Source: an uncultured Pelagibacteraceae bacterium
Lineage (GTDB): Bacteria > Pseudomonadota > Alphaproteobacteria > Pelagibacterales > Pelagibacteraceae
Reading direction: 5' to 3'
Assembly (NCBI GenBank): GCA_902528735.1
Contig: CABZTP010000004.1
Span: 5,204-69,203 of the forward strand
Length of the DNA: 64,000 bases
Below the pieces are notes generated by a model. The model was not told the origin of the DNA. It made no database searches and saw only the letters and a list, made by a program, of their open reading frames with translations. The translations under genes and the position numbers were made by a program. Of the stretch, positions 5,674 to 58,574 are shown piece after piece. Every line of letters begins with the position of its first letter. Position 1 is the first letter of the stretch.

Positions 5674-5706
5674 TTAATTTTAGTGATAATAATCAACTAG
5701 GTTATC

Positions 5707-6480: not shown

Positions 6481-6481
6481 A

Positions 6482-10449: not shown

Positions 10450-10456
10450 TTTCGAT

Positions 10457-11647: not shown

Positions 11648-11658
11648 ATTCTCCCTTT

Positions 11659-11729
11659 AATTGTTAACAATTTATATAATCAAAATTAAATCTCATTAAT
11701 TTTTTTTTTCAATGACAATTTTGACAATT
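11659..11729. promoter_or_regulatory. Candidate operator elements upstream of livJ
   Basis: Perfect 14-bp palindrome AATTGTTAACAATT (11659-11672) next to the SD, and tandem TGACAATT at 11713 and 11722. Confidence 0.35.
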
Positions 11730-11772
11730 AAATGAGGCTATATGTACGTATTTTTAATAAATTTAGTATTTT

Positions 11773-39818: not shown

Positions 39819-39821
39819 TTT

Positions 39822-40994: not shown

Positions 40995-41034
40995 CTATTG
41001 AAAATAAACTTCTTAAATGTTTTAAACATTATTC

Positions 41035-42120: not shown

Positions 42121-42233
42121 TTTAACAAATATATAGTATTCCATCAGCAAAATGGCCTGTTGACTCTGAATATCGTTTTTGTTGTACTTAATATATATAA
42201 ATTAATTTATAATAACGTTTAAACGGAGGATAA

Positions 42234-43349: not shown

Positions 43350-43385
43350 AAAAACTATAAAAGACTAGTATAATATAATATATAT

Positions 43386-43416
43386 AGGGCGACTTTAATA
43401 GTCGCCCTTTTTATTT
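43386..43416 (+). terminator. Intra-operon hairpin/terminator after potD
   Basis: AGGGCGACT-TTAAT-AGTCGCCCT followed by a T tract. Confidence 0.85.
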
Positions 43417-44679: not shown

Positions 44680-44680
44680 T

Positions 44681-45535: not shown

Positions 45536-46660
45536 TTAATTAACCGATTCTATTATAGTTGCTATACCCATTCCTAAGCCTATACATTGTGTAGACAGAG
45601 CATATTTTTTATCTTCACGTCTAAGTAAATCGGCTGCTTTCCCGGTAATTCTTGCCCCTGTAGCACCGAGTGGATGACCTAATGCTAATGCACCACCATC
45701 TAAGTTTATTTTATTTTGGTCAATCCCAAGATCTTTGACGCATGCAATTGACTGAGATGCGAACGCCTCGTTAATTTCAACTATATCAATATCATTAATT
45801 GATAAATTTGCTCTTTCTAATGCTTTTTTTGTTGCCCCAATTGGTCCAAGCCCCATTACATCCGGCTCACATCCTTTAACTCCGGTTGCAACAATTCTAC
45901 CTAAAATATCTAAATTATTTTCTTTAGCAAAATTTTCTTCACATATTAGCGTTGCAGCTGCTCCATCTGTAAGTGGTGATGATGTTGCTGCTGTGACAGT
46001 TCCTTCTTGATCAAACGCAAGTTTTAATCCATCTAAAGTTTCTTGACTACTTTTAGGACGAATATTTCCATCTTCAGCACATCCAGAAATTGCAACAATT
46101 TCATTTTTAAATTTGCCATTAAGTTGAGCATTATTTGCTTTCTGATGGCTTTGAATTGCAAACTCTTGCTGTTCTGTTCTAGAAATATTATATCTTTTGG
46201 CAACATTTTCTGCAGTGATTCCCATTGAAAAATAAACATTTGGATTTTCTTTTTCTGTGTACGGATAGGGTATAGGCTCAAAACCAGTTGTCACTCTTGT
46301 CATACTTTCAACACCTCCACAAACAAATGCTTTTCCTGCTCCCATAGCTATTTTTCCTACAGCCACATGTATAGCCTCCATTGATGAACCACACCATCTA
46401 TCAACAGTCATACCTGAAGTATGTATCTCCATACCAGATAAAAAAGTTGTAAGTTTACCAATATTAAAACTTTGCTCTCCAACTTGAAAAGCACATCCAA
46501 CAACAATATCTTCAATATCAGCTGGATTAATTTTTGATTTTGAAACTAAGCTCTTCACAACCTCAGCAAACATATTTACTGGCTTGACATCAATTAGTGC
46601 TCCTTTTCTTGCCATTGTAAAAGGAGATCTTGAATATCCTGCAATAACCGCTTTATTCAT
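45536..46660 (-). CDS. Acetyl-CoA C-acyltransferase (thiolase)
   Basis: RWCGSS, EINEAFA, GHPLGATG, CIGLGMG. Confidence 0.95.
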   Translation of the reverse strand: MNKAVIAGYSRSPFTMARKGALIDVKPVNMFAEVVKSLVSKSKINPADIEDIVVGCAFQVGEQSFNIGKLTTFLSGMEIHTSGMTVDRWCGSSMEAIHVAVGKIAMGAGKAFVCGGVESMTRVTTGFEPIPYPYTEKENPNVYFSMGITAENVAKRYNISRTEQQEFAIQSHQKANNAQLNGKFKNEIVAISGCAEDGNIRPKSSQETLDGLKLAFDQEGTVTAATSSPLTDGAAATLICEENFAKENNLDILGRIVATGVKGCEPDVMGLGPIGATKKALERANLSINDIDIVEINEAFASQSIACVKDLGIDQNKINLDGGALALGHPLGATGARITGKAADLLRREDKKYALSTQCIGLGMGIATIIESVN

Positions 46661-46683
46661 AAATATTTTATACCTATTAATTA

Positions 46684-47847
46684 TTATTTTTTAAATGGTA
46701 AAGAAGACACAATACCTTCTCTAAGCTTGCTGTCTGGAGTGTGAACTATAACTTCAGTGCCTGTTTCACAAAACTCATTTAAAATCATAGATAATCCAAT
46801 ATTTTTTTTGAATTTTGGTGAATAGATACCTGAGGTAACTTTACCAATTATTTTTTTATTTTTTGAATAAACTGGAAAAGGTATCGAGCATGGTGGACAA
46901 TTATTTCCCTCAAACATAATACCTTTTAATCTTTGTTGAATGCCGTTTGTTTTTATATTTTTTAATGCCTTCTTACCAATATAATCGTGTTCCGACTCGT
47001 TTTTACAATATTTTTCCAAGTTACATTCAAGTGGATTATTGTCTTTAGTAAAATCATTTCCATAAGATAAGAGACCCGCTTCAATTCTATCAATTAAATT
47101 AGGACATCCTGGTGCAATATTAAATTCCTTACCAGCTTTCCATATTATATCCCAGATTTTTTCTCCCATTTCATTTTTATCAAAATATTCCTCAAAGCAT
47201 TTAAAATAAATTTCAAAACCATCTTGATTACTATAACCTGATCTTGCGATTATCTGTTTAGTTCCCAAAAAATCAAATACTTTAAAATTAAAAAATTTCA
47301 ATTTCCTGATATCTTCGCCAAATATTGAAGCCATTAAATCTTCAGCCTTAGGCCCTTGAACAGCAAGTGGATATACATCTGGTTCTTTTATATTAACATT
47401 TAAGTTTAAACCTACTGCAATACCTTTTGCCCACAAAAGTATGTCCGAGTCTGCAATTGAAATCCAAAACATATCATCATCTAACTTTAATAAAACTGGG
47501 TCATTAATCATTCCAGCATTTTCATCAATCATTGGTATATAAAAGCATTTACCTGTCTCCATATTTTTTAATGATCTTGGCGTCATTTTTTGAACTAATA
47601 AACTAGCATCAGGTCCCGAAATTTGAACTTGTCTTTGACATGAAACATCCCACAATTGAACGTATTCATTTAAATGCCAATAATCATCTTCAACAGATTT
47701 TTGAAATCCCTTGGGCAAAAGCATATGATTCACAACTGTAAAATCAGTAACACCACACTCTTCTACTCTTTTTGTATAAGGGGTTCTTCTAATTCTTCTA
47801 GACATATTTAGTTTAGTCTTAATTTTACTATGAACTAAAGAAGCCAT
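46684..47847 (-). CDS. dmdA: DMSP demethylase (DmdA)-type THF methyltransferase
   Basis: SRRIRRTPY, NHMLLP, WDVSCQRQV, NDPV, WISIADSD, PGCPNLIDRIEAGLLSYGND are DmdA signatures; some substitutions (see findings). Confidence 0.8.
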   Translation of the reverse strand: MASLVHSKIKTKLNMSRRIRRTPYTKRVEECGVTDFTVVNHMLLPKGFQKSVEDDYWHLNEYVQLWDVSCQRQVQISGPDASLLVQKMTPRSLKNMETGKCFYIPMIDENAGMINDPVLLKLDDDMFWISIADSDILLWAKGIAVGLNLNVNIKEPDVYPLAVQGPKAEDLMASIFGEDIRKLKFFNFKVFDFLGTKQIIARSGYSNQDGFEIYFKCFEEYFDKNEMGEKIWDIIWKAGKEFNIAPGCPNLIDRIEAGLLSYGNDFTKDNNPLECNLEKYCKNESEHDYIGKKALKNIKTNGIQQRLKGIMFEGNNCPPCSIPFPVYSKNKKIIGKVTSGIYSPKFKKNIGLSMILNEFCETGTEVIVHTPDSKLREGIVSSLPFKK

Positions 47848-47850
47848 AAT

Positions 47851-48186
47851 TTATTTAGACCACCAAACTGTATAACTGTTTGGAGAAATTATAATAGGCA
47901 GATGGTAATTTCTTTTGTTATTTATCATTTTAAATTTTATAACTATTTCACTCACAACCCTTTTCTTTTTAAAGTATTCTCCTATCTCACAAACCATTTC
48001 ATAATTACATTCACAATCTTTTTTATTAAGATTAAAAATTTCATTTATTCTACCATTTATGTCTGTCTTTGTATTTAAAAAAAGTTTTTTTGATTTAGAT
48101 GAAAGTATCTGATAAATTTTTATCTTGATGTCGCTGGCATGACTTCCATCTGAACCATTAAGTATATGTGAGGAAAATTTTGCCAT
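47851..48186 (-). CDS. Transthyretin-like (5-hydroxyisourate hydrolase-fold) protein lacking YRGS
   Basis: SSHILNG, TDINGR, YHLPIIISPNSY; ends WWSK. Confidence 0.82.
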   Translation of the reverse strand: MAKFSSHILNGSDGSHASDIKIKIYQILSSKSKKLFLNTKTDINGRINEIFNLNKKDCECNYEMVCEIGEYFKKKRVVSEIVIKFKMINNKRNYHLPIIISPNSYTVWWSK

Positions 48187-49926
48187 TTATTCTATTGATG
48201 ATTTCTCTCTTTTACTAGCAACTGCCGCAACAATTGGACTTAATACTGGTTTAGCTTTTACATTAACACACGCTGTTTTACCACTTGCAATGGCTCTTTT
48301 CAAAGCTGGGCCCAATTCTTCTCTTTTTGTTACTAATTCTCCAAATCCTCCAAAGCCCTCAAATATTGTATGAAAAGGAATATCTCTAAAATCGGTTGCT
48401 ACTCTTTTTCCACTTTCAAATAATCTTTCTTGTTGTTGACCAATTGATGCTAACCCACCGTTATTATCAATTACCACAACAATTGGTTTTTTTTCAAAAA
48501 ATGCTGTTTCTATTGACATACCTCCAGACAAAAAAGCACCATCTCCACTAATTAAAATAACATTTGAATTTGGATTATTATTTTTTGCTGATAAGGCAAA
48601 AGATACTCCAACTCCAAGCATACTAAATGTACCTGGATGTAAAATTCCACCTAACTTTTTACCTTGAGCTCCTGCCAAGTTTATAGCTATCTCTGACCAA
48701 AAATGTGTATTACCACCATCAATAACTAGCCAATCTTTTTCATCCATTACACTTTGAACATCTAAAGCGAGTTGTAATGGGTGAATTTTACCACCATTTT
48801 TTTTTGTTGTCTCAGCTTCAACTTTTAGATCGTTTAAATATTTTTCTACCCAACTATTTTTTTTGTTTTTATTTTCATCAAACCATGCATTTCCTAAAAC
48901 CCATTTGTTGTTTTTTTTTAAATTACTTAAAGTATCTAAAAAAACTCCTGGATCACACAAGAGATTGTGATCTGCCGCTCTATTAAATTCAACCTCTTCA
49001 TGAGAACCATTAATACAAACTAAGGTTGTCGTTTTTGGTATGAAGGGAGGATTGCCAAAATTCATTTGGTTATCTAATCTTGCTCCAATCATTAATACTA
49101 AATCAGAATTATGTAACGCAAACTCTGAAGGAGGATATTGGTGTATATCTGCTAAGCCCATATACGCATCCACCTCTTCACCAAGAAGTTTTTGATGATA
49201 AGGAACATTAAATATGGGAATCAATAAATTTTTTCCTGCTGCTTCTAAGTTTTTCTCAGATTTAGACCACCAAACCCCATGTCCACCAATAATAACAGGT
49301 TTTTTTGCATTGCATGCTAGCTCTAATATTTTTGAAAGATCGGTGGGATCAGGCCAAGCTTTTAAAATTGGTTTTGGCTTATGTGAAAATGGCCTTTCTT
49401 CTAGTCCTGCATTTTCTTCAAAAGAGGAAAACATTATGTCAACTGGTAAACTTAAATGCACAGCACCTGGATATCCATTTGTTGCAATTCTGTAAGCTTT
49501 GTCTACAAATTCTCTAATTCTTGTTCCATCAGTAATACTTGCGCTATATTTTGTAAGAGGAGCTGCTATTGCAACATCATCGATTTCTTTAAAGCCACCT
49601 GAGCCTTGTCTTTTTAAACTGCTTGACCCAGTGATGTAAATTATTGGTGTTCTTTCTCCCCAGGCTTCCATCATCGAAGGAACTGCATTTGCAAATCCTT
49701 CTGGGCCAACCAAACATACAGATGGTTTCCTTGTAATCCTTGTATGACCATCAGCAAAGTGCCCAGCTATTTGCTCATGAGGACAGTTAATAACATCTAT
49801 TTGGCATTCCATGAAACCTTCTATTGCAGGGTTACAAAATCCACCAGATAAAGTAAAAACTTTATCAATACCTTTATCTCTTAAAGCTCTTGCTATTAAT
49901 GCTCCACCTCTAATTTTTTTTTCCAT
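48187..49926 (-). CDS. ThDP-dependent enzyme (acetolactate synthase / 2-hydroxyacyl-CoA lyase superfamily)
   Basis: FTLSGG, catalytic HEQ, GDGAF...NN ThDP motif. Confidence 0.9.
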   Translation of the reverse strand: MEKKIRGGALIARALRDKGIDKVFTLSGGFCNPAIEGFMECQIDVINCPHEQIAGHFADGHTRITRKPSVCLVGPEGFANAVPSMMEAWGERTPIIYITGSSSLKRQGSGGFKEIDDVAIAAPLTKYSASITDGTRIREFVDKAYRIATNGYPGAVHLSLPVDIMFSSFEENAGLEERPFSHKPKPILKAWPDPTDLSKILELACNAKKPVIIGGHGVWWSKSEKNLEAAGKNLLIPIFNVPYHQKLLGEEVDAYMGLADIHQYPPSEFALHNSDLVLMIGARLDNQMNFGNPPFIPKTTTLVCINGSHEEVEFNRAADHNLLCDPGVFLDTLSNLKKNNKWVLGNAWFDENKNKKNSWVEKYLNDLKVEAETTKKNGGKIHPLQLALDVQSVMDEKDWLVIDGGNTHFWSEIAINLAGAQGKKLGGILHPGTFSMLGVGVSFALSAKNNNPNSNVILISGDGAFLSGGMSIETAFFEKKPIVVVIDNNGGLASIGQQQERLFESGKRVATDFRDIPFHTIFEGFGGFGELVTKREELGPALKRAIASGKTACVNVKAKPVLSPIVAAVASKREKSSIE

Positions 49927-49927
49927 T

Positions 49928-51088
49928 TTAATAAGTTGTGTTCATAAAAAGTTTTTGCTCGATTATATCAGAAGAAACCTCATTAATATCGTTTAATCCA
50001 ACCAACCCTAGTGTTGTACTGGTTTCTTCTTTAATTATATCAACTATTCTTCTCAATCCATTTGCGCCATCAGCACCCATTGCATACATAACAGGTCTTC
50101 CAATCATTGAAAAATCTGCACCCAAAGCTAATGATCTCACAATATCACTTCCACTTCTTATTCCACTATCAAATATAATAGGAAAACTATTTCCTACAGC
50201 CTCTCTAATAAATGGTAAAATATTTATTGCTGCAGATGCACTATCTAGCTGTCTACCTCCGTGATTTGAAACTTGAATTGCATCAGCACCCATTTCTTTA
50301 ATTTTAACAGCATCGTCCGAAGACATTACTCCTTTAATGATTAACTTACCCTTCCATTTATTTCTAACTCTTTTTAAGGTTTCCCAATCTGTTTTGCCTC
50401 TACTTTCTTTTCTCTTAAAAATACCACTTCCACTTTTTGATGTTACATAGTTCATTGGTTTTGGTATTCCCTTCAGTAATGTTGAAATTGACCAAAGAGG
50501 GTGGGTTGCAAAATCAAAAAATTGTTTAGGTCCAATTTTAAAAGGATATGAAAAACCATTCTTATCATCTCTTGTTCTTCTTGATAAAACTGGAACATCG
50601 ACAGTAAGAATAGCAACCTCATAACCAGTTTTTTCAGCTCTTTCAAGTAGCTCCATTACAAAACTTTCGTCTTGAAAAATATAGAGCTGTAACCATGAAT
50701 GACCTTCTGAAAGTTCATACATTTTTTCTAGAGTAGTGGTCGACGCCATTGATACACATGTTGGTATATTATTTCTTGCACTTTCTTTTGCCAACATAGA
50801 GTCAGCACCTGGCCATGAGAGATTTGTCATTCCCATTGGAGCAAATCCAAAAGGATAATCATAATCAAATCCTAGAATATTTTTTTTTAATTTTCTTTCT
50901 TCAACATTTCTTAAAACTCTAGGTTCTAATCGTATTTGATCTAGAGCATTACTGTTTATTTCAGATAATTTTTCATCACCAGATGCACCATCTATAAAAT
51001 CGTACACTAATTTAGGCAGTCTTTTTCTTGATAGCTTCTTAGCATCTTCAATGCTAAAAATTTTTTTACTTGCTGTAATTTTATCCAT
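49928..51088 (-). CDS. FMN-dependent alpha-hydroxy acid oxidase/dehydrogenase
   Basis: APMG, WLQLY, LTVD, IIKG, VSNHGGRQLD, DSGIRSG. Confidence 0.93.
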   Translation of the reverse strand: MDKITASKKIFSIEDAKKLSRKRLPKLVYDFIDGASGDEKLSEINSNALDQIRLEPRVLRNVEERKLKKNILGFDYDYPFGFAPMGMTNLSWPGADSMLAKESARNNIPTCVSMASTTTLEKMYELSEGHSWLQLYIFQDESFVMELLERAEKTGYEVAILTVDVPVLSRRTRDDKNGFSYPFKIGPKQFFDFATHPLWSISTLLKGIPKPMNYVTSKSGSGIFKRKESRGKTDWETLKRVRNKWKGKLIIKGVMSSDDAVKIKEMGADAIQVSNHGGRQLDSASAAINILPFIREAVGNSFPIIFDSGIRSGSDIVRSLALGADFSMIGRPVMYAMGADGANGLRRIVDIIKEETSTTLGLVGLNDINEVSSDIIEQKLFMNTTY

Positions 51089-51776
51089 TTAAATTTTTAA
51101 TATGCGTTTTTAAGCTAACCTTATCATGTTTGTTTACATAATAAGCATCATGATTAATTCTTGAAGAATAAACCTCAGAAGGTATTCCGTCAATAAAAAG
51201 CACAGCTACACCATCATCTATAGCTAATCCTTCAGGTAAATTTTCATTTTTAATATCAATAACAAATTGCTCAAGTCTATTATTATCCGAAGCATGTGGG
51301 GTGCAACTACCTGATAATAAACTTATACCTCTTAAGGGACTTAAACTTTTGTTCATAGAGTCTGACAGTATCCAATCAAACCAACATGCCCCACCTGCAC
51401 TTACGCCACCTAAAATTATTCCTTTTTCGTATGCTTTTTTAAATATTTCAACAAGATTATATCTTTTCCACAATTCTATCATTTTGAATGTGTTGCCACC
51501 CCCAATATAAATTAAATCTTTTTTTAACATCCATTCATCAAATCCATTTACACCTGAACAAAGATTAAAATGAGATAATTTTAAATTCTTAGATTGAAAT
51601 CTTTGGTAAAAAAGATCAGTTTTTTCAATATTATCATCACTAGCTGTGGGCAAAAAACCAATTTCTATGTCTGATTTATTAACCTGATTTAATACAAAAT
51701 CGTCTAAATCTTTGTCAGACTTATGTGTAAATCCACCACCACCTACTACTACTATTTTTTTTTTATTCCTGACCAC
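51081..51776 (-). CDS. pepE: Peptidase E (S51) family
   Basis: FLPTAS, YIGGGNT, GVSAG, CTPH, AIDDG; GTG start overlapping the upstream gene. Confidence 0.88.
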   Translation of the reverse strand: MVRNKKKIVVVGGGGFTHKSDKDLDDFVLNQVNKSDIEIGFLPTASDDNIEKTDLFYQRFQSKNLKLSHFNLCSGVNGFDEWMLKKDLIYIGGGNTFKMIELWKRYNLVEIFKKAYEKGIILGGVSAGGACWFDWILSDSMNKSLSPLRGISLLSGSCTPHASDNNRLEQFVIDIKNENLPEGLAIDDGVAVLFIDGIPSEVYSSRINHDAYYVNKHDKVSLKTHIKNLNG

Positions 51777-52978
51777 GGGGAAGGACCTTTTGGAATATCA
51801 GTTTTTAGACCTCGTACAATTTCGTTTTTAAAATCATACATTGGTAGCGTACATATTTCACCTTTGTGAGTCTTGTTGTCATTGCAATCAACATCTACAA
51901 TTATTCCTGGCTTATGTTTTGTGTTATTCAATAAAACTATACCAACACCACATTTTTGAAAAGGAGACCAGGTACTTGAAGTAACCTTACCAATTATTTC
52001 ACTATTTAATTTTATATAAGATCCTTTTAAAGCCGTTCCATTTTCTACTCTTATCCCCCAGCATCTCTTATCTTTATCGGCCGTTTCTAAAGCTGATTTT
52101 CCAATAAAATAATTTTTTTTTAAATCAACATATTTTCCTAAACCTACATCGTAAGGATTTGTGTGATATGTAAAATCTTGACCAGCTGACAACAATCCTG
52201 ACTCAATTCTTTTACATCTAAAACCAGGCGTACCCGTAAGTATCATCCCCATTTTTTTTCCTTCCTCAAATATATAATCACCGATTTTTTCAGTATTATT
52301 ACTTTTTCTAAAATAAATTTCCCATCCAAGTTCATTGCTAAAACCAGATCTACTTATAATTACTTCTTCATTTAATATTGTTACTTCTTTCCAGTCAAAA
52401 TATTTCCATTTTTCAGGAAAAGTTTCTTTTGTTAATATTTTTAGAAGCTTCATAGAATTTGGACCTTGAACTTGACTAACCCAAACATCTGGATCGGATA
52501 TTTTCACTCTAAGATTATCAGAATGAGCTTTGTACCATGAAAATAGATCACCATCTGCTTGTGCAAACCAAAATTTGTTTTCTTCGAGTCTGAGTAAAAC
52601 TCCATCTGTAATCATCCCTCCATCACTATAACAAGCAAATTGATAAGAGCATCTTCCTACTTTTACTTTAGAAATATCTCGAGTGAATATCTTTTGTAAA
52701 AGTTTTTCAGCATCTGGACCTGAAATTTCATAAGGATGTTCTCCAGTATGACGAAATATAACTTCTTGCCTAACTTTCCAATACATTTCATCTGCAGAAG
52801 CATTTGATAATACTTCAGGATTTAATCTTCCTGCATAAAAAGAATATTCAGGGTCATAAGGAAGTTCTTGGTAAGCTAATGGATGTATCCCAACAGTTCT
52901 AGCAAGCTCAACAACTTTGTTGTTATTTACTTTTAAAGGTTTGACCGAAAATCTGACTTTGTTTAAATCGTTTTGCAT
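51752..52978 (-). CDS. GcvT/DmdA-fold THF-dependent methyltransferase, atypical
   Basis: EISGPDA, GGMITDG, QVQGP, SRSGFSNELGWEIY, RIESG. Confidence 0.88.
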   Translation of the reverse strand: MQNDLNKVRFSVKPLKVNNNKVVELARTVGIHPLAYQELPYDPEYSFYAGRLNPEVLSNASADEMYWKVRQEVIFRHTGEHPYEISGPDAEKLLQKIFTRDISKVKVGRCSYQFACYSDGGMITDGVLLRLEENKFWFAQADGDLFSWYKAHSDNLRVKISDPDVWVSQVQGPNSMKLLKILTKETFPEKWKYFDWKEVTILNEEVIISRSGFSNELGWEIYFRKSNNTEKIGDYIFEEGKKMGMILTGTPGFRCKRIESGLLSAGQDFTYHTNPYDVGLGKYVDLKKNYFIGKSALETADKDKRCWGIRVENGTALKGSYIKLNSEIIGKVTSSTWSPFQKCGVGIVLLNNTKHKPGIIVDVDCNDNKTHKGEICTLPMYDFKNEIVRGLKTDIPKGPSPWSGIKKK

Positions 52979-52993
52979 TTATATATATAAAAA

Positions 52994-53022
52994 AGTGTAT
53001 ATTAATTAAAATATCTATTCAA
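52994..53022 (-). promoter_or_regulatory. Sigma70-type promoter of the leftward enzyme operon
   Basis: TTGAAT-17 bp-TACACT on the minus strand, 15 nt before ATG 52978. Confidence 0.55.
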
Positions 53023-53118
53023 TTAGTAGATGAATCACTACATTTTGCATGTTGTTATCTAGTTCTGGAATTGTTATCTTTTTAATTATTTAAACAACTT
53101 AAGAAAAAGAGGGAACTT

Positions 53119-54606
53119 ATGAAATACATACTTAAAGTTTTTTCAGCGACATTTATGTCTCTGATTTTATCTTTTTCTATTGCCAATGCATCAAGTGGAG
53201 TATTTAAAGTGTCACATGATCTTGGGTTTGGAAAAGATACTAACTTAGATGCCATAACTAAAGGGCGTTTATTTCAAGTTGTCATCAAAACACAAAACCG
53301 ATTAGTCAGACCTGATATGAATGGTGTTCCATCACCTTCATTATCAACTGATTGGAGTGCAAATTCTGATGCAACTGAGTGGACATTTAATTTAAGAAAA
53401 GGAATATACTTCCATGATGGATCAGCATTTGATGCTCCTGATGTAAAATATTCTTTAATGAGAGCAAAAGATCCAGATATCGGATCTCCGGTAAGAAAAA
53501 GTTTAAATGTTGTAGAAGATATTGAAGTGGTTAATCAACATACAGTTAAAATGAAGTTATCTACTTCATTTGCAGATTTTCCATTATTATTAACTGATTA
53601 CAGATTAAGAATGATACCTGAAGGATCAGGTGATACTATAGGTCAAACTGGAGTAGGAACAGGACCATTCATGGTTGATAAGTTTGACCCAGAGGGAACA
53701 ACAATTCTTAAAGCTAACCCAGAATATTGGGAAGGCGCACCGGGAGTAGCAGAAATACATGTAATTGCAATTCCAGACGCCCAAGCTAGAATTCAAGCTC
53801 TTTTAACTGGCCAGATTGACATGAACAGATATGTTCCTTTCAATCAAAAGAAGATTTTTGATAGTAACTCTAAGTTTACAACAACTGTAATTCCTACAGG
53901 AAACTGGAGAGGAATGGTTATGAGAACCGATACTGCTCCGTTTGATAATCCTAAAGTAAGAAAAGCAGTAAGGTTAGCAGTTGATAGACAAGAACTAGTT
54001 GATTTAGTAATGGGTGGTGCAGCCACTGTATCTTGCGATACTCCTGTTATGCCATCAGATCAATACCGTTTAAATATGGATTGTCCTCAAAATATTAGTA
54101 AAGCAAAAAATCTACTAAGAGAAGCGGGATATCCAAACGGAGTTGAACTAACAGTTTACCCTGCAACATTAGAACCAACTTGGCCTACAATTGCAGAAGT
54201 AGTTCAACAACAAGTTGCTAAAGCTGGAATTAAAGTTAACATTGAAATGGTTCCATCAAAAGGTTATTGGAATGAAGTCTGGATGAAAAAACCAGTTTCA
54301 ATGACACGTTGGAATCAAAGACCTGCAGATACAATCTTGCATGAAGCATATCATAGTGGAGCAAAATGGAATGAATCTTATTTCAAAAATGCTGACTTTG
54401 ATAAAAATTTAGCTGATGCTAGAAGTGAGTTAGATTTCAATAAACGAAAGAAAGCATATCAAAATGCTCAAATGACTTTATGGGAACAAAGTGGAACTAT
54501 GATCCCATACCATGTATCAAGACTTGTTGTAACATCATCAAAAGTTAAAAATCTTGATGCTGTAGACCACTTTTCTATACAATGGCACAAAGTCAAAGTT
54601 GACTAA
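53119..54606 (+). CDS. Opp/Dpp/Nik-family (class 5) substrate-binding protein
   Basis: Signal peptide, WTFNLRKG..FHDG, GTGPF, KVRKA, WNES; SD GAGGG. Confidence 0.93.
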   Translation: MKYILKVFSATFMSLILSFSIANASSGVFKVSHDLGFGKDTNLDAITKGRLFQVVIKTQNRLVRPDMNGVPSPSLSTDWSANSDATEWTFNLRKGIYFHDGSAFDAPDVKYSLMRAKDPDIGSPVRKSLNVVEDIEVVNQHTVKMKLSTSFADFPLLLTDYRLRMIPEGSGDTIGQTGVGTGPFMVDKFDPEGTTILKANPEYWEGAPGVAEIHVIAIPDAQARIQALLTGQIDMNRYVPFNQKKIFDSNSKFTTTVIPTGNWRGMVMRTDTAPFDNPKVRKAVRLAVDRQELVDLVMGGAATVSCDTPVMPSDQYRLNMDCPQNISKAKNLLREAGYPNGVELTVYPATLEPTWPTIAEVVQQQVAKAGIKVNIEMVPSKGYWNEVWMKKPVSMTRWNQRPADTILHEAYHSGAKWNESYFKNADFDKNLADARSELDFNKRKKAYQNAQMTLWEQSGTMIPYHVSRLVVTSSKVKNLDAVDHFSIQWHKVKVD

Positions 54607-54614
54607 AAGTATTT

Positions 54615-54650
54615 AAATAAAGGCCGCATATAAGCGGCCTTTATTTTATT
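54615..54650 (+). terminator. Intra-operon hairpin/terminator after the binding-protein gene
   Basis: AAATAAAGGCCGC-ATATAA-GCGGCCTTTATTT. Confidence 0.85.
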
Positions 54651-54691
54651 TCTATTTAATTGATTTTTGTTAAAAAGTTTTAGTTAATCTT

Positions 54692-55648
54692 ATGCTTTTA
54701 TTAATTTTAAAGAGAATTGGACTAGGACTTATCACATTATTTATAGTTTCATTAATTACGTTTGTTGGTGTTGAAGTTTTACCAGGAGACGCTTGTACTA
54801 CTTATTTAGAGAGAGAAGCATATGGCCCTGCTCTTGATGCATGTGTAAAAAGACTTGGATTAGATATTCCATCATATCAAAGGTATTTAGATTGGGCTGC
54901 TAATGTTGTCAGAGGTGATTTTGGATATTCTCTAAGTGGAGAAATGCCTATAAATGAGGTACTTGGACCTAGAGTAAAAAATTCACTAGTTTTAGCCTCC
55001 GTTTCAATACTTATTGGAATTCCACTAGCCATAGTATTGGGGATTATCACTGCTCTTTGGAGAGATAAGCTTCCAGATATTATAATTTCAACAATAACAA
55101 TATTTTCAATGACTATTCCAGAATTTATTAGTGCTACATTGTTGATTTTAATCGTTGCTATTTGGCTTGGATGGTTGCCTGGAATTGTGATTATTCCATC
55201 TGATGCAACATTTTATGAATTACTTTCAAACATTATTCTCCCTGTTGTTGCTATATCAATGATAATGACAGCACACATGGCAAGAATGGTTCGTTCAAGC
55301 GTCATTCAAGTAATGGCAAGTGATTATGTACAAATGGCGACTTTAAAAGGTGTCCCTTATTGGAAAATGGTTTTCAGACATGTTTTACCAAATGCATTAT
55401 TACCAGCAATAAATGTTGTGGCATTAACTATAGCATGGTTATTAGGTGGTGTGGTAGTGACTGAGGTTGTTTTTAATTACCCTGGACTAGGAAGATTGGT
55501 AATAGAATCTATTTCTAATAGAGATTTACCAGTTGTTCAAGCGTTAGCAATAATACTTGCATCAATCTATGTTGGTATCAATTTAATTGCAGATTTAATG
55601 ACATTAATGCTCAACCCAAGACTAAAAAGTTTACAAATAAAAAAATAA
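54692..55648 (+). CDS. Opp/Dpp-type permease (B)
   Basis: GDFGYS, DYVQMATLKG, EVVFNYPGLG, NRDLPVVQ. Confidence 0.93.
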   Translation: MLLLILKRIGLGLITLFIVSLITFVGVEVLPGDACTTYLEREAYGPALDACVKRLGLDIPSYQRYLDWAANVVRGDFGYSLSGEMPINEVLGPRVKNSLVLASVSILIGIPLAIVLGIITALWRDKLPDIIISTITIFSMTIPEFISATLLILIVAIWLGWLPGIVIIPSDATFYELLSNIILPVVAISMIMTAHMARMVRSSVIQVMASDYVQMATLKGVPYWKMVFRHVLPNALLPAINVVALTIAWLLGGVVVTEVVFNYPGLGRLVIESISNRDLPVVQALAIILASIYVGINLIADLMTLMLNPRLKSLQIKK

Positions 55649-55649
55649 T

Positions 55650-56543
55650 ATGCAAAGTGATTTAGCAACAAATAATAAACAAAAAAATAACTTTGAAAAA
55701 GTTTTAGAAATTTTAAAAACTATGGCTTCAAAGCCTTCAGGTTTTATTGGACTTTCAATTCTTATATTTCATATATTATTAGCATTAATGAGTCCATATA
55801 TTGCACCTTATGATTACAAAGCGATTAGTCCAAATACAATGCTGCTTGCACCTTCAGCTGAACACTGGTTTGGGACAGATAGTTTAGGGAGAGATGTTTT
55901 TACAAGAACCATACTAGGTGGCAGAACTGCACTTACTGTTACTTTCTTTGGTTCGCTAATTGCTCTTTTATGGGGAGGTCTATTAGGTATCTTTTGTGGA
56001 TTAGTTGGAGGAAAAATTGACGATGTAGTTATGAGAGTTGTAGATGCATTTCTATCAATTCCATGGATACTTGCAATGTTGTTAATTGTTTCTCTTTTAG
56101 GAACATCTACCCAAGTATTAATACCTGCTCTAGGTTTTTTTTATGGTAAAGGAATTGTTAGAGTCGCAAGAGCAGCCACACATGATGTCATTGCCAAAGA
56201 TTTTATAGTTTCAGCTAGAGCTAGAGGTCATAGTAATATGTCTATTATATGGAATGAAATTATCCCAAATGTTAGAGATGCAATATTAGTTGAAGGGGCA
56301 ATGAGATGGTCATGGATGTTATTAGGTTTTAGTTCATTATCTTTTTTAGGTTTTGGTGTTAGCCCTCCAACACCAGACTGGGGTTTGATGATATCGAATG
56401 CGAGAGGACTAATGTCATTTGCATATTGGTCAGTAATAGCTCCAATTGTAGGATTAAGCTCTTTAATTATTGGCATCAATTTAACTGCTGATGCATTTGC
56501 AAAGGCATTAGGAATTGATCGATCAACTAAAGCACCTGTATAA
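55650..56543 (+). CDS. Opp/Dpp-type permease (C)
   Basis: HWFGTDSLGRD, LSFLGFG..PPTPDWG. Confidence 0.93.
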   Translation: MQSDLATNNKQKNNFEKVLEILKTMASKPSGFIGLSILIFHILLALMSPYIAPYDYKAISPNTMLLAPSAEHWFGTDSLGRDVFTRTILGGRTALTVTFFGSLIALLWGGLLGIFCGLVGGKIDDVVMRVVDAFLSIPWILAMLLIVSLLGTSTQVLIPALGFFYGKGIVRVARAATHDVIAKDFIVSARARGHSNMSIIWNEIIPNVRDAILVEGAMRWSWMLLGFSSLSFLGFGVSPPTPDWGLMISNARGLMSFAYWSVIAPIVGLSSLIIGINLTADAFAKALGIDRSTKAPV

Positions 56544-58574
56544 ATGAGCGAAATAATAGAAAGTGTAAAAAATTTATCGATTGGATTTAATAGCCAAACA
56601 GGTAAACAAATTTCTATTCTTAGAAATGTAACCACTAATATAAAAAAAGGAGAAACTGTTGGTATTGTAGGGGAGTCTGGTTCAGGCAAAAGCACCTTAG
56701 CTTTAGCTATGATGGGTTATATAAAACAAGGGCTATTTGCCCTTGAAGGAGAGTGTATTTTTAAATCTGAAGACTTATTAAAGATGAATAGTCGTCAGTT
56801 GGAAAAAATTAGAGGCAGAAAGATTGCGATGATACCTCAAAATGCAGGTCAGGCACTTACCCCAAATTTAAAAATTGGATATCAAATAGATGAAGCACTT
56901 AAATTACATACTGATTTAAATAAAAATGAGAGAGATAAAAAAATTTCTGAATTATTAAATAAAGTTAGATTGCCATCACCAGAGACAATGGCATTTCGTT
57001 ATCCACACGAACTATCTGGAGGTCAACAACAAAGAGTTGCTGTTGCAATGGCTTTAGCTGGGAAACCAGACTTGCTTTTATTAGACGAACCTACAACAGG
57101 TCTTGATGTAACAACTCAGGCCCACGTGTTAGAACTCTTAAGATTTATTGCAAAAGATACTGGAACGTCGATGATTTATGTTAGTCATGACCTTGGAGCT
57201 ATCGCCCAAGTAAGTGATAGAATAGTTGTAATGTACGCAGGGGAAATAGTTTTAGAAGGACCAGCAAGGAAAATATTAAAAGAACCAATTCATCCTTATA
57301 CATTTGGTTTATTAAAATCTATTCCAAAACTATCCCTTACAGGTTTGCCAGATTCAATGCCTGGAAGCCAACCTCAACCTGGGAGTATTAGTGATGGTTG
57401 TAGTTTTTATGAAAGATGCAATCTTGCTAGCGATAAATGTAAGAATAACTCTCCAGAATTAGAATATTTGAACAATTTAGATACAAGTGTGAGATGTTTT
57501 AATCATAAGGATCTAATACAAGAAAATAAATTACATCATTCTACTATTACTAAAAAGGAAACTGTTCAGAAAAATAATAATGTTTTAAATTTAAAAAATG
57601 TTTCGATCACTTATGCTAAGCAAAAATTTTTTGATCAATTATTAAATAAAATTTCAGATGAAAACCCAACTGTTAAAGACATAAATTTAGATATTAATAA
57701 AGGAGAAACTATTGCATTAGTTGGGGAGTCGGGTAGTGGTAAATCTACAATACTTAAATCAATTGCTGGGCTACTAAAAACTAAAGATGGTCAGATAAAA
57801 TTTATTAATGAACGTATTTTATCTTCTGATTTGAAGCTGAGAGATCCAAATGATCTTAGGGCAATACAACTAATATTTCAAAATCCAGATGAGTCTTTAA
57901 ACCCCAATCATACGGTTGAGCAGATTTTATCCCAACCACTTAAACTTTATTTTAATTTGACAGGTAATGAATTGAAAAAAAATATAATCGATCTTTTAAA
58001 AAAGGTTAGATTAGGTGAATTCTACATGTCACGATATCCAAGACAATTATCTGGTGGGGAAAAACAACGAGTTGCTGTTGCAAGGGCGTTTGCAGCAAAA
58101 CCGGATATAATTTTATGCGATGAAGTTACATCTGCATTGGATGTCTCCGTTCAGGCTGCAGTATTAAATTTACTCCAAAAGCTTAAAGAAGATTTAGGAA
58201 CAACATACATTTTTGTATCTCATGATTTAGCAGTTGTTAGAGCTATAAGTGATAGAGTTGCAGTTCTTTACCAAGGAAGATTATGTGAAATAGGCCCATC
58301 ACAAAATGTTTACAACTACCCATCCCATCCATATACTGAAGTATTGTTGGGAGCAGTTCTAGAACCAGACCCAGACATAAAGCCTAAATTAGTCGCAGAA
58401 GATATAGTTGAGGAAAAACCACCAGAAAAAGGCTGTTCTTTTCAGGGAAGATGTCCAAGAAAACTTGGAGACATATGTAACAAAGAGGTCCCTCCCTGGC
58501 AGATAGGTGAAAATGGAAATGCTATCAGATGTCATATAAAAATAAATGAATTAAAAAATTTACAGAATGTATGA
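56544..58574 (+). CDS. Fused OppD/OppF double ATPase
   Basis: Two GESGSGKS/LSGG cassettes, each followed by HPYT and a Cys-containing tail. Confidence 0.95.
   Translation: MSEIIESVKNLSIGFNSQTGKQISILRNVTTNIKKGETVGIVGESGSGKSTLALAMMGYIKQGLFALEGECIFKSEDLLKMNSRQLEKIRGRKIAMIPQNAGQALTPNLKIGYQIDEALKLHTDLNKNERDKKISELLNKVRLPSPETMAFRYPHELSGGQQQRVAVAMALAGKPDLLLLDEPTTGLDVTTQAHVLELLRFIAKDTGTSMIYVSHDLGAIAQVSDRIVVMYAGEIVLEGPARKILKEPIHPYTFGLLKSIPKLSLTGLPDSMPGSQPQPGSISDGCSFYERCNLASDKCKNNSPELEYLNNLDTSVRCFNHKDLIQENKLHHSTITKKETVQKNNNVLNLKNVSITYAKQKFFDQLLNKISDENPTVKDINLDINKGETIALVGESGSGKSTILKSIAGLLKTKDGQIKFINERILSSDLKLRDPNDLRAIQLIFQNPDESLNPNHTVEQILSQPLKLYFNLTGNELKKNIIDLLKKVRLGEFYMSRYPRQLSGGEKQRVAVARAFAAKPDIILCDEVTSALDVSVQAAVLNLLQKLKEDLGTTYIFVSHDLAVVRAISDRVAVLYQGRLCEIGPSQNVYNYPSHPYTEVLLGAVLEPDPDIKPKLVAEDIVEEKPPEKGCSFQGRCPRKLGDICNKEVPPWQIGENGNAIRCHIKINELKNLQNV

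What the first reader, a model, noticed from the sequence alone, without database searches (positions are those of the whole stretch)
46684..58574. Candidate undescribed catabolic system: dual-demethylase cassette with its own Opp-type importer
Seen: one divergent promoter region drives two arms. Leftward are an atypical GcvT-fold methyltransferase, PepE, an FMN 2-hydroxy-acid oxidase, a ThDP enzyme, a transthyretin-like protein and a DmdA-type demethylase, with gaps of only a few nt or overlaps. Rightward is a complete Opp-type ABC importer. Established: DmdA moves a sulfonium methyl to THF, FMN oxidases make 2-oxo acids, and ThDP enzymes cleave them. The usual DMSP partners dmdB/C/D and acuI are absent from the window. 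I know of no described pathway with this gene set. Inference: uptake and breakdown of a methylated onium 2-hydroxy or 2-amino acid. For example, 4-dimethylsulfonio-2-hydroxybutyrate (DMSHB) or S-methylmethionine could go to the 2-oxo acid, then DMSP-aldehyde, DMSP and MMPA. Alternatively, demethylation could come first, giving MTHB/MTOB as a methionine source. Caveats: algal DMSHB is the D-isomer while this oxidase family is normally L-specific, and the two amide-hydrolase-type genes are unexplained.
Basis: partly seen in the sequence, partly recalled or inferred. Interest (0 to 1): 0.9.

Follow-up and report, generated by a model that had tools for sequence, protein, structure and literature searches.

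The report
Unstudied operon around second DmdA
A removable 13-kb gene block in this SAR11-type ocean bacterium joins a second "DMSP demethylase" to three enzymes and a transporter with no role in known DMSP breakdown; the same core recurs in many marine and lake bacteria, so it probably encodes an undescribed pathway for an unidentified methylated organic acid.

Summary
Seven tightly packed minus-strand genes lie opposite a four-gene family-5 ABC importer. They encode a thiolase, a DmdA-type enzyme, a transthyretin-like (TTR-like) protein, a ThDP enzyme, an FMN 2-hydroxy-acid dehydrogenase, an S51 peptidase and a second GcvT-like enzyme (GcvT2).

The block is one 13-kb insertion/deletion. A complete genome of the same genus that lacks it has potC directly beside fadB.

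In 80 species genomes, ThDP and the TTR-like gene are adjacent in 79 of 79 loci. A DmdA-type gene follows in 43 of 51 non-SAR11 loci, and the FMN dehydrogenase precedes in 37 of 58. The hosts include lake Comamonadaceae.

The same importer and the S51 peptidase travel together in a subset (9 of 38). Other hosts use TRAP, TTT or TAXI transporters, so the substrate is probably a carboxylate, sometimes taken up as a conjugate.

The operon-linked DmdA forms its own clade, apart from the characterised enzyme. This genome carries that enzyme elsewhere, next to dmdB/dmdC-like genes. GcvT2 and the thiolase are SAR11-type additions.

The substrate (DMSHB, SMM or another onium acid) remains untested. 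I found no paper on this operon. Earlier reports of this scan describe the same core on other DNA.

The parts
45536..46660 (-). Acetyl-CoA C-acyltransferase (thiolase), last gene of the left arm. It is part of the 13-kb indel and is a SAR11-type addition to the core.
   Evidence: Thiolase_N/C and TIGR01930 at 410.8 bits against a cut-off of 240.55. No match at E<=1e-80 in four same-genus genomes where the ThDP search also found nothing, G013 (complete) among them. In G013 potC abuts fadB.
46684..47847 (-). DmdA-type THF-dependent methyltransferase, the operon-linked clade. It is a second copy beside the canonical dmdA.
   Evidence: NF009133 at 535.8 bits, cut-off 410. 379 bits to P. ubique DmdA 3TFH and 46% identical to the genome's own canonical copy. 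It lies in a context-defined clade with SH-aLRT 97. Signature Val32/Lys39 in 72 of 72 members.
47851..48186 (-). Transthyretin/HIU-hydrolase-fold protein with an altered C-terminal tail. It is the invariant partner of the ThDP gene.
   Evidence: PF00576 at 71 bits. TIGR02962 at 70.9 bits, below the cut-off of 87.45. His7, Arg46 and His95 are kept, and His16, Glu63 and Trp108 are invariant. The YRGS tail is replaced by WWS(K). It sits next to ThDP in 79 of 79 loci.
48187..49926 (-). ThDP-dependent enzyme of an uncharacterised subfamily nearest the 2-hydroxyacyl-CoA lyase / oxalyl-CoA decarboxylase / benzaldehyde lyase group.
   Evidence: All three TPP domains are present, but no NCBIfam equivalog cut-off is reached. 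Best solved relatives are HACL/OXC/BAL at 169-193 bits. Orthologues in other classes are 68-81% identical.
49928..51088 (-). FMN-dependent 2-hydroxy-acid dehydrogenase, LldD/mandelate-dehydrogenase-like, with Phe at the position of glycolate oxidase Tyr24.
   Evidence: PF01070 at 396 bits. LldD models fall below their cut-offs. Nearest solved proteins are L-lactate oxidase and (S)-mandelate dehydrogenase. WFQLY, TVD, KGV and SNHGGRQ are conserved. The DF motif replaces DY and the Phe is the majority residue (at least 70%) among 55 orthologues.
51081..51776 (-). S51-family serine peptidase. It is not a PepE or cyanophycinase equivalog and it travels with the ABC importer.
   Evidence: PF03575 at 108.6 bits. 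PepE 27.4 bits (cut-off 156) and cyanophycinase 27.9 bits (cut-off 126.6). The GvSAG nucleophile motif and a conserved His are present. Importer and S51: both 9, importer only 3, S51 only 1, neither 25.
51752..52978 (-). Second GcvT-fold THF enzyme (GcvT2), a narrow family. It occupies the place where other hosts carry a LysR regulator.
   Evidence: GCV_T plus GCV_T_C. DmdA model 201 bits (cut-off 410) and GcvT 142 bits (cut-off 300). Only three full-length relatives at 43-48% identity were found among 1.8 billion representatives, and none is in this context. Present in 10 of 10 fully flanked SAR11-type loci and in G249, and in 0 of 38 others.
52979..53118 (.). Divergent AT-rich spacer between the two arms, with a conserved TGTTA(A)C motif at 53072-53076 and an AGAGGG ribosome-binding site.
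   Evidence: Sequence. Alignment of nine SAR11-type spacers, with T113-A117 invariant. No Rfam match. No promoter excess over shuffles.
53119..54606 (+). Family-5 periplasmic solute-binding protein, nearest the GsiB/HbpA/AgaA/NikA group.
   Evidence: PF00496 at 280 bits. All NCBIfam equivalogs fall below their cut-offs. PDB neighbours are YliB/GsiB, HbpA and AgaA. RNA-library contigs from three studies are far deeper here than on neighbouring genes, which is a weak hint only.
54615..54646 (+). 13-bp GC-rich hairpin with a T tail between the binding-protein gene and the permease genes. It is a likely attenuator or stabiliser.
   Evidence: Terminator-like site. The summed RNA-contig depth falls from 600-700 to 4-11 at this point in X15 and X16.
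54692..55648 (+). ABC permease, DppB/GsiC/NikB-like.
   Evidence: BPD_transp_1. Best NCBIfam hits fall below their cut-offs. 57-65% identical in non-SAR11 clusters.
55650..56543 (+). ABC permease, DppC/GsiD/NikC-like.
   Evidence: BPD_transp_1 plus OppC_N. 57-74% identical in non-SAR11 clusters.
56544..58574 (+). Fused double ATPase (OppD-OppF type).
   Evidence: Two ABC_tran stretches. NF008453 at 487.8 bits, cut-off 408.

Best explanation
The cassette is a self-contained, gained-or-lost catabolic island for an unidentified methyl-onium carboxylic acid, most likely a dimethylsulfonium acid with a 2-hydroxy-acid group.

Shown:
- Its conserved heart is a four-gene operon: FMN 2-hydroxy-acid dehydrogenase, a HACL/OXC/BAL-clade ThDP enzyme, a modified transthyretin-fold protein and a distinct clade of DmdA-type THF methyltransferase.
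- This operon occurs in many marine and freshwater Proteobacteria.
- In this genome it is joined to a GsiB/Dpp-like ABC importer with an S51 peptidase, plus a second GcvT-like enzyme and a thiolase.

Inferred mechanism:
1. The importer takes up a peptide-like or amide conjugate of the acid, and the S51 peptidase frees the acid. Hosts with TRAP, TTT or TAXI transporters take up the free acid.
2. The FMN enzyme oxidises the 2-hydroxy acid to the 2-oxo acid.
3. The ThDP enzyme decarboxylates or cleaves that product.
4. The transthyretin-like protein, which keeps the His/Arg/His hydrolase set, processes the ThDP product.
5. The DmdA-type enzyme moves the activated methyl to THF, and the C1 unit then enters folate metabolism.
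6. GcvT2 and the thiolase widen or extend the route in SAR11.

The order of these steps and the identity of the substrate are not established.
For: Layout and families.

One unit of inheritance:
- The ThDP gene and the second dmdA co-occur in exactly the same 7 of 25 same-genus genomes.
- Gene order is identical in relatives at 69-98% identity, whose outer flank on the thiolase side differs.
- The complete genome G013 has potC beside fadB, with no cassette.

Core conserved far beyond SAR11:
- ThDP-TTR adjacency 79 of 79.
- DmdA-type downstream in 43 of 51 non-SAR11 and 15 of 15 SAR11-type loci.
- FMN-dh upstream in 37 of 58 non-SAR11 and 14 of 14 SAR11-type loci.
- ThDP is 68-81% identical across classes.

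Importer and S51: both 9, importer only 3, S51 only 1, neither 25. Fisher p = 1e-5, but kin are not independent.

Alternative carboxylate transporters (TRAP, TctC/TctA, TAXI) and LysR regulators occur in other hosts.

Folate link: MetF-like and PurU genes follow the DmdA-type gene in Hyphomicrobiales loci.

The DmdA-type genes, defined by context, form one clade (SH-aLRT 97). It is separate from the orthologue of the characterised P. ubique enzyme and from 28 other DmdA-model hits.

Catalytic residues are retained in the FMN-dh, S51 and TTR-like proteins.

Weak support for expression: RNA-library contigs from four studies cover every gene.
Against: - No substrate, product or activity has been measured for any of these proteins.
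- The DmdA-type protein passes NCBI's DMSP-demethylase equivalog model. It may simply demethylate DMSP.
- FMN-dh is missing from about a third of non-SAR11 loci and DmdA-type from 8 of 51, so the four genes are not an obligate set.
- The nearest solved relatives of the ThDP enzyme act on CoA thioesters, but only 5 of the 80 loci carry an AMP-forming ligase.
- Occasional neighbours point as much to quaternary amines as to sulfonium compounds: MttB-family genes, a homocysteine S-methyltransferase and TauD/BBOX-family dioxygenases.
- The role of the transthyretin-like protein is a guess.
- The RNA data are contigs. They cannot show strand, level or a single transcript.
Confidence: 0.55

Rival explanations
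1. First reader's specific version. The substrate is DMSHB (or SMM after deamination). The FMN enzyme makes 4-dimethylsulfonio-2-oxobutyrate, the ThDP enzyme decarboxylates it to DMSP-aldehyde, this is oxidised to DMSP, and the DmdA-type enzyme is a true DMSP demethylase yielding MMPA. This is a special case of the best explanation.
For: - The DmdA-type protein scores 535.8 bits on the DMSP-demethylase equivalog and sits inside the wider DmdA radiation.
- The FMN-dh and ThDP genes are adjacent in the logic of the mandelate pathway.
- Aldehyde dehydrogenase genes lie nearby in a few loci.
- A crotonase follows the DmdA-type gene in G249.
- DMSHB is a known algal DMSP precursor (PMC5395565).
Against: - The core has no conserved aldehyde dehydrogenase, and this scheme gives the invariant transthyretin-like protein no role.
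- The operon is common in lake Comamonadaceae, where DMSHB is not known to me to be abundant.
- The ThDP enzyme is nearer CoA-ester lyases than 2-oxo-acid decarboxylases.
Confidence: 0.15
2. The substrate is a quaternary-ammonium (betaine-type) hydroxy acid rather than a sulfonium compound, and the DmdA-type enzyme has shifted to an N-methyl onium donor.
For: Neighbours in some hosts:
- non-Pyl MttB-family methyltransferases in 9 loci
- a homocysteine S-methyltransferase next to GcvT2, and BetA/BetB-like genes, in G249
- three TauD/BBOX-family dioxygenases upstream of ThDP-TTR where FMN-dh is absent

The operon occurs in freshwater and soil-type lineages. Fixed changes at positions 32 and 39 separate it from other DmdAs.
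Against: - From general chemistry, THF N5 is a poor nucleophile for trimethylammonium methyl groups. The known enzymes for these donors use zinc-thiolate or corrinoid chemistry.
- The amine-type neighbours are in a minority of loci and may serve other osmolytes.
Confidence: 0.15
3. The two arms are functionally unrelated neighbours. The importer with S51 takes up ordinary peptides, Asp-dipeptides or glutathione, and merely sits beside an organic-acid operon.
For: - The importer/S51 pair is absent from 25 of 38 fully flanked non-SAR11 loci, where other transporters are used.
- The binding protein's nearest solved relatives bind glutathione, peptides, opines or nickel complexes.
- No regulator or RNA element ties the arms together in SAR11.
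Against: - The same importer type (binding protein 49-59% identical) lies beside the core in Comamonadaceae, Hyphomicrobiales, Puniceispirillales, Paracoccaceae, Arenicellales and Granulosicoccaceae.
- In SAR11 both arms are gained and lost together as one 13-kb block.
- S51 sits inside the catabolic arm here, overlapping its neighbours by 8 and 25 nt.
Confidence: 0.12

Closest known systems
DMSP demethylation pathway (DmdA with DmdB, DmdC, DmdD/AcuH) of 'Ca. Pelagibacter ubique' HTCC1062 and Ruegeria pomeroyi
   Same: The last core gene belongs to the DmdA family and passes NCBI's equivalog model. A THF-dependent methyl transfer is expected.
   Different: It forms a separate clade from the characterised enzyme, whose orthologue lies elsewhere in this genome next to dmdB/dmdC-like genes. 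It is always linked to a ThDP enzyme and a transthyretin-like protein, which have no place in the known pathway. It also occurs in lake Betaproteobacteria.
Mandelate pathway module of Pseudomonas putida (MdlB FMN (S)-mandelate dehydrogenase, then MdlC ThDP benzoylformate decarboxylase)
   Same: An FMN 2-hydroxy-acid dehydrogenase gene lies directly before a ThDP enzyme gene. (S)-mandelate dehydrogenase is among the nearest solved relatives of the FMN enzyme.
   Different: The ThDP enzyme is nearest HACL/OXC/benzaldehyde lyase; benzoylformate decarboxylase is not among the matches with E <= 1e-30. The FMN enzyme has Phe at the carboxylate-binding Tyr position. The module also carries a methyltransferase and a transthyretin-fold protein.
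5-hydroxyisourate hydrolase (HiuH/PucM, transthyretin-like proteins)
   Same: The fold and the His/Arg/His catalytic positions are shared.
   Different: It scores below the equivalog cut-off. The diagnostic C-terminal YRGS is replaced by a conserved WWS tail. Extra invariant His16, Glu63 and Trp108 are present. There is no purine-catabolic context in the cassette.
Glutathione / dipeptide / opine family-5 ABC importers (GsiABCD, DppABCDF, AgaA-type)
   Same: The architecture is the same: a family-5 binding protein, two permeases and OppD/OppF-type ATPase domains. These are the nearest solved and curated relatives.
   Different: No equivalog cut-off is reached for the binding protein or the permeases. 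The ATPase domains are fused into one protein. The importer is coupled to an S51 peptidase and to the demethylase operon.
Chloromethane utilisation (cmu) type C1 funnel: methyltransferase with metF, folD and purU
   Same: In some hosts the DmdA-type gene is followed by MetF-like and PurU genes. This suggests oxidation of methyl-THF to formate.
   Different: No corrinoid methyltransferase is involved, and these folate genes are not in the SAR11 cassette.

Membership tests
DmdA, DMSP demethylase (NCBIfam NF009133 equivalog) | Whole-protein score above the curated cut-off | tested here: met
   535.8 bits against 410. Lake Betaproteobacterial operon copies score 565 bits.
DmdA, DMSP demethylase | Orthology with an experimentally characterised enzyme (P. 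ubique SAR11_0246 / PDB 3TFH) | tested here: not met
   The genome's other copy is the 3TFH orthologue at 613 bits. The cassette copy scores 379 bits and falls in a separate context-defined clade with SH-aLRT 97.
DmdA, DMSP demethylase | Demethylates DMSP to MMPA with THF | not testable with these tools
   Needs an enzyme assay. Trp197 of 3TFH is Tyr here, but Tyr also occurs in the highest-scoring DmdA hits outside the operon, so this is not informative.
5-hydroxyisourate hydrolase (TIGR02962) | Score above the cut-off and the C-terminal YRGS signature | tested here: not met
   70.9 bits against 87.45. The tail reads WWSK, and the W-W-S pattern is conserved in orthologues.
5-hydroxyisourate hydrolase / transthyretin fold (PF00576) | Fold-family membership and the catalytic His, Arg, His | tested here: met
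   PF00576 at 71.2 bits. H7, R46 and H95 are invariant in 39 orthologues.
FMN-dependent alpha-hydroxy-acid dehydrogenase/oxidase (PF01070) | Family score and the catalytic His-Arg (SNHGGRQ), Lys, Asp and Tyr129-equivalent | tested here: met
   396 bits. The motifs WFQLY, TVD, KGV and VSNHGGRQLD are conserved (residue roles from my knowledge of glycolate oxidase).
FMN-dependent alpha-hydroxy-acid dehydrogenase/oxidase | Carboxylate-binding Tyr24 (glycolate oxidase numbering) | tested here: not met
   The DF motif replaces DY, with Phe the majority residue (at least 70%) among 55 orthologues. The equivalence to Tyr24 rests on my reading of the motif, not on a structure.
L-lactate dehydrogenase LldD (NF033901 / NF008398) | Score above the cut-off | tested here: not met
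   228.9 bits against 550, and 272.8 against 376.
ThDP enzymes: acetolactate synthase, 2-hydroxyacyl-CoA lyase, oxalyl-CoA decarboxylase, Xsc | Score above the cut-off of any curated equivalog | tested here: not met
   Best scores are 264 bits against 587 (PRK05858), 235.6 against 600 (HACL), 199 against 557 (OXC) and 167 against 676 (Xsc). The three ThDP domains are present.
PepE alpha-aspartyl dipeptidase / cyanophycinase | Score above the equivalog cut-off | tested here: not met
   27.4 bits against 156, and 27.9 against 126.6. Only Pfam S51 is met, at 108.6 bits.
OppA / DppA / GsiB / NikA binding proteins | Score above the equivalog cut-off | tested here: not met
   GsiB 175.8 bits against 594, NikA-type 160.9 against 600, DppA 98.4 against 1005, OppA 65 against 947. 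Family 5 (PF00496) is met.
Glycine-cleavage T protein (for GcvT2) | Score above the cut-off, with gcvH/gcvP partners | tested here: not met
   141.9 bits against 300 and 104 against 235.85. No gcvH or gcvP gene lies in the cassette.

The most novel reading that the evidence does not exclude
The operon-linked 'DmdA' clade is not a DMSP demethylase in the cell. With an orphan ThDP enzyme and a re-tooled transthyretin-fold hydrolase, it would form a new pathway for a widespread but unrecognised onium 2-hydroxy acid of algal or cyanobacterial origin, used in both oceans and lakes. In that case, gene surveys and automatic annotation that count this clade as dmdA overstate DMSP demethylation, and a new ThDP / transthyretin-fold chemistry awaits description.
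Probability: 0.35. Interest if true: 0.85.

Novelty: new variant of a known kind. Interest (0 to 1): 0.7.

Why it matters
dmdA is the standard marker for the main route of marine DMSP sulfur. This work shows three things:
- One whole clade that passes the curated DmdA model is wired into an operon with enzymes foreign to that route.
- SAR11 carries the operon as a second, dispensable copy with its own importer.
- The same operon is common in lake bacteria.

Identifying the substrate would add a new compound and pathway to the carbon, sulfur and methyl-group budget of the most abundant ocean bacteria. It would correct annotation of this clade. It would also give functions to three orphan enzyme subfamilies: the ThDP enzyme, the transthyretin-like protein and GcvT2.

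The link between the importer and the S51 peptidase gives a concrete experimental handle. Ligand screening of the binding protein, and of the TRAP/TTT receptors in other hosts, should converge on one compound and its conjugate.

Tried and rejected
- **ThDP/TTR complex.** Complex prediction on the ThDP enzyme plus the transthyretin-like protein, each as a 39-row alignment, gave no verdict (score 0.00). This is no evidence either way.
- **GcvT2 as an anchor for distant contexts.** Relatives at 43-48% identity lie in unrelated neighbourhoods, so GcvT2 is not part of the general system.
- **Trp197-to-Tyr as a marker of changed specificity.** Rejected, because the top-scoring DmdA hits outside the operon also carry Tyr.
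- **Homarine.** The published homABCDER operon has a different gene set (PMC13236597).
- **Riboswitch or known RNA in the spacer or cassette.** No credible Rfam match.
- **Promoter-consensus scan.** No excess over shuffled sequence.
- **Ligand hints from solved relatives** of the TRAP DctP and TctC receptors of other hosts. Only distant matches were found.
- **Clifton et al. 2024 SAR11 binding-protein survey.** It does not mention a family-5 or peptide-type protein. Sun et al. 2011 list only four aminomethyltransferase genes in HTCC1062, HTCC1002 and HTCC7211 and none in a context like this cassette.
- **Literature searches for this gene combination** found nothing. Reisch 2008 and Schuller 2012 are not held.
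- **The earlier-note claim that this clade is 'dmdA clade C'** could not be tested, for lack of reference sequences.
- **RNA contig depth** as a measure of expression level or co-transcription. Contigs cannot show this.

Full report
**1. What is there**

The window has about 31% G+C. It lies in a 1.03-Mb genome, 73% complete, of a genus whose other genomes are 0.5-1.3 Mb. Close matches are Pelagibacter records.

Minus strand:
- thiolase (45536-46660)
- DmdA-type protein (46684-47847)
- transthyretin-like (TTR-like) protein (47851-48186)
- ThDP enzyme (48187-49926)
- FMN 2-hydroxy-acid dehydrogenase (49928-51088)
- S51 peptidase (51081-51776)
- second GcvT-fold protein, here called GcvT2 (51752-52978)

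The gaps along this arm are 23, 3, 0 and 1 nt, followed by overlaps of 8 and 25 nt. A 140-nt spacer separates it from the plus-strand genes.

Plus strand:
- family-5 binding protein (53119-54606)
- two permeases
- fused double ATPase (ending at 58574)

Some labels need tightening:
- The peptidase belongs to family S51 but fails the PepE and cyanophycinase models.
- The binding protein is nearest GsiB/HbpA/AgaA/NikA, not OppA.
- The ThDP enzyme fails every curated equivalog. Its nearest solved relatives are 2-hydroxyacyl-CoA lyases, oxalyl-CoA decarboxylase and benzaldehyde lyase.
- The FMN enzyme is nearest L-lactate oxidase and (S)-mandelate dehydrogenase.

**2. One unit of inheritance**

Among 25 genomes of the genus (this one included), the ThDP gene and a second DmdA-model hit occur in exactly the same seven. 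One further genome, G010, holds a fragment of the cassette at a contig end.

The gene order is identical in relatives at 69-98% protein identity, and in some of these the outer flank on the thiolase side differs.

In G013, a complete genome of the genus without the cassette, potC lies about 18 nt from fadB, and the outer genes keep the same order. The thiolase gave no match at E<=1e-80 in four same-genus genomes in which the ThDP search also found nothing, G013 among them. FadB is present in four of the five genomes searched.

The unit is therefore 45536-58574. It includes the thiolase and excludes fadB.

The genome also carries the orthologue of the characterised P. ubique DmdA on another contig (613 bits to PDB 3TFH). 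That copy sits directly after acyl-CoA dehydrogenase and AMP-ligase genes of dmdC/dmdB type. The cassette copy is thus an extra paralogue, 46% identical to the canonical one.

**3.

A class-wide sample found ThDP orthologues in two unrelated genomes.
- G249 is another low-GC genome. It carries a homocysteine S-methyltransferase, then GcvT2, FMN-dh, ThDP, TTR, DmdA-type, OsmC and a crotonase, beside a different family-5 ABC system. It has no S51.
- G104 has 59% G+C and 4.3 Mb. It carries FMN-dh, ThDP and TTR, followed by a TAXI-TRAP transporter, and has no demethylase at that locus.

A scan of one genome per species returned 565 related stretches. The best 80 carry ThDP proteins 71-81% identical to that of G104. 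Besides Pelagibacterales, they come from:
- Hyphomicrobiales, Rhizobiaceae, Rhodospirillales, Puniceispirillales and Paracoccaceae
- Comamonadaceae from lakes (Rhodoferax, Polaromonas, Limnohabitans-type, Hydrogenophaga)
- Granulosicoccaceae and Arenicellales
- single Chloroflexota and Flavobacteriaceae bins

Counts over these 80 loci, using only loci with enough flank:

| Feature | Non-SAR11 loci | SAR11-type loci |
|---|---|---|
| TTR-like directly after ThDP | 64 of 64 | 15 of 15 |
| DmdA-type within 3.5 kb downstream | 43 of 51 | 15 of 15 |
| FMN-dh directly upstream | 37 of 58 | 14 of 14 |
| GcvT2 (fully flanked loci) | 0 of 38 | 10 of 10 |

In the 38 fully flanked non-SAR11 loci:

| Same importer type and S51 | Loci |
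|---|---|
| Both present | 9 |
| Importer only | 3 |
| S51 only | 1 |
| Neither | 25 |

"Same importer type" means a binding protein 49-59% identical to the one in the window.

The usual non-SAR11 arrangement is: importer leftwards, then S51, then a LysR regulator, then FMN-dh, ThDP, TTR and DmdA-type. Other hosts place a DctPQM TRAP system, TctC/TctA or a TAXI system at the operon. In Comamonadaceae a TctC receptor gene sits between the TTR-like gene and the DmdA-type gene.

From this I infer three things:
- The substrate carries a carboxylate.
- The importer/S51 pair serves a conjugated form of it.
- The SAR11 cassette is a regulator-free, compacted version with GcvT2 and a thiolase added.

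**4. The DmdA-type gene**

All operon-linked copies pass the DMSP-demethylase equivalog, lake Betaproteobacterial ones included (565 bits).

I built a tree from 72 copies defined by context, 11 canonical SAR11 copies, 28 other hits from a class-wide sample and GcvT2 as outgroup. The operon-linked copies form one side of a branch with SH-aLRT 97. Nearby lineages are only weakly resolved. This was a quick search without bootstraps, so the monophyly should be re-tested.

Position 197 of 3TFH is Trp in SAR11 DmdA, and a published analysis calls it key for DMSP (PMC7487153). It is Tyr in the operon clade. It is also Tyr in the highest-scoring DmdA hits outside the operon, so it does not discriminate.

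Val32 and Lys39 are fixed in 72 of 72 operon copies. All the others carry Tyr32, and none carries Lys39.

In two Hyphomicrobiales loci the gene is followed by MetF-like and PurU genes. This fits a THF-bound methyl group that is then oxidised.

**5. The other proteins**

- **FMN dehydrogenase.** It keeps the WFQLY, TVD, KGV and VSNHGGRQLD motifs. It has Phe where glycolate oxidase has the carboxylate-binding Tyr24, and Phe is the majority residue there among 55 orthologues. The residue roles come from my knowledge of that family.
- **TTR-like protein.** It keeps His7, Arg46 and His95 of HIU hydrolases. His16, Glu63 and Trp108 are additionally invariant. A conserved WWS tail replaces YRGS. It evolves much faster than its ThDP neighbour: 30-61% identity to the window protein against 65-83%, and 51% against 78% mean column identity.
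- **S51 peptidase.** It keeps its GxSAG nucleophile motif and a conserved His.
- **GcvT2.** It belongs to a very narrow family. Only three full-length relatives at 43-48% identity turned up among 1.8 billion representatives, and none sits in this context.

**6. Expression hints**

Contigs from four metatranscriptome studies, at 93% identity or more, cover the whole cassette.

Summed depth is far higher over the binding-protein gene. In two of the four runs (X15, X16) it falls from about 600-700 to 4-11 just past a 13-bp GC-rich hairpin at 54615-54646. These are contigs from RNA libraries, so I treat this only as a weak hint of expression and of attenuation after the binding-protein gene.

I found no Rfam element in the cassette. 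The divergent spacer holds a short motif, TGTTA at 53072-53076, that is conserved across SAR11-type cassettes.

**7. Interpretation**

Shown: a co-inherited island whose four-gene core is widely conserved, whose DmdA-type member is a separate clade, and whose importer travels with the S51 peptidase.

Inferred: uptake of a conjugate, release of a 2-hydroxy acid, oxidation, ThDP-dependent cleavage, a hydrolytic step by the TTR-like protein, and methyl transfer to THF.

The identity of the substrate is open.
- DMSHB or SMM remain possible. However, this reading gives the invariant TTR-like protein no role, the core has no aldehyde dehydrogenase, and the operon is common in lakes.
- A quaternary-ammonium acid is suggested by occasional MttB, homocysteine methyltransferase and TauD/BBOX-family neighbours. 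Chemically it is a poorer methyl donor for THF.
- That the two arms are merely neighbours is unlikely, given their repeated co-location in several classes and their joint gain and loss.

**8. What is known**

I found no paper on this gene set. The homarine operon is different. Sun et al. 2011 list four aminomethyltransferase genes in strains HTCC1062, HTCC1002 and HTCC7211, none in a context like this cassette. The 2024 survey of SAR11 binding proteins mentions no peptide-type or family-5 protein.

This scan has already reported the same core on other genomes. Those reports reached the same reading: an undescribed module around a DmdA paralogue.

- the exact indel boundaries
- the coupling of the importer to the S51 peptidase, and the alternative carboxylate transporters
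- the freshwater distribution
- the demotion of the Trp-to-Tyr marker in favour of Val32/Lys39
- the conserved residues of the FMN-dh and TTR-like proteins

**Verdict.** This is a real, conserved and so far unstudied catabolic system built from known enzyme families. The specific substrate proposals are untested.

Noticed in passing
window 54615-54646: A perfect 13-bp GC-rich hairpin with a T tail lies between the binding-protein gene and the first permease gene. In two of four RNA-library contig sets (X15, X16) summed depth falls from about 600-700 to 4-11 just past it. It looks like an intra-operon attenuator or stabiliser.
   Followed up: partly
window 53066-53080: A short motif (ATTGTTA(A/T)CTT, with TGTTA invariant) lies about 45 nt before the binding-protein start. 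It is conserved across SAR11-type cassettes that differ elsewhere in the spacer. It may be a promoter element or an operator. SAR11 has no LysR gene here, unlike other hosts.
   Followed up: partly
G000 contig C6 (L117:4374-9963): The canonical DMSP locus of this genome runs acyl-CoA dehydrogenase (dmdC-like), AMP-ligase (dmdB-like), dmdA (the 3TFH orthologue), then asd and the sdh genes. It matches the conserved block described in the 'Pelagibacter, resolved' preprint.
   Followed up: partly
L034 (G104:C1:1600500-1620400), 4995-12177: A high-GC alphaproteobacterium carries FMN-dh, ThDP and TTR-like genes followed by a TAXI-family receptor and a fused TRAP permease, with a transposase upstream and no demethylase at this locus. 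The trio can therefore work without methyl removal.
   Followed up: partly
L038:5067-8139 and L042:1644-4688: Where the FMN dehydrogenase is absent, paralogous TauD/TfdA-family dioxygenase genes (three in L038, two in L042) precede ThDP-TTR. This may be a non-homologous way of making the ThDP substrate.
   Followed up: no
L047:13263-15096 and L048:4562-6395: MetF-like (weak MTHFR match) and PurU genes directly follow the DmdA-type gene in two lake or pond Hyphomicrobiales bins. They would form a route from methyl-THF to formate.
   Followed up: partly
L033 (G249:C4:63000-82900), 4875-14516: A different low-GC genome has a longer family-5 binding protein, a homocysteine S-methyltransferase, GcvT2, the four-gene core, OsmC and a crotonase. 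GMC oxidoreductase and aldehyde dehydrogenase genes lie nearby. It resembles the other SAR11 variants noted earlier in this scan.
   Followed up: partly
window 39078-45535: The left flank (eutA-like, doeA-like, potA/D/B/C) is syntenic in genomes with and without the cassette. It is therefore not part of the island.
   Followed up: partly
L091:5224-6066 and three other Comamonadaceae loci: An alpha/beta-hydrolase (BD-FAE/Abhydrolase_3) gene sits between the binding-protein gene and S51. It is a second hydrolase tied to the importer.
   Followed up: no
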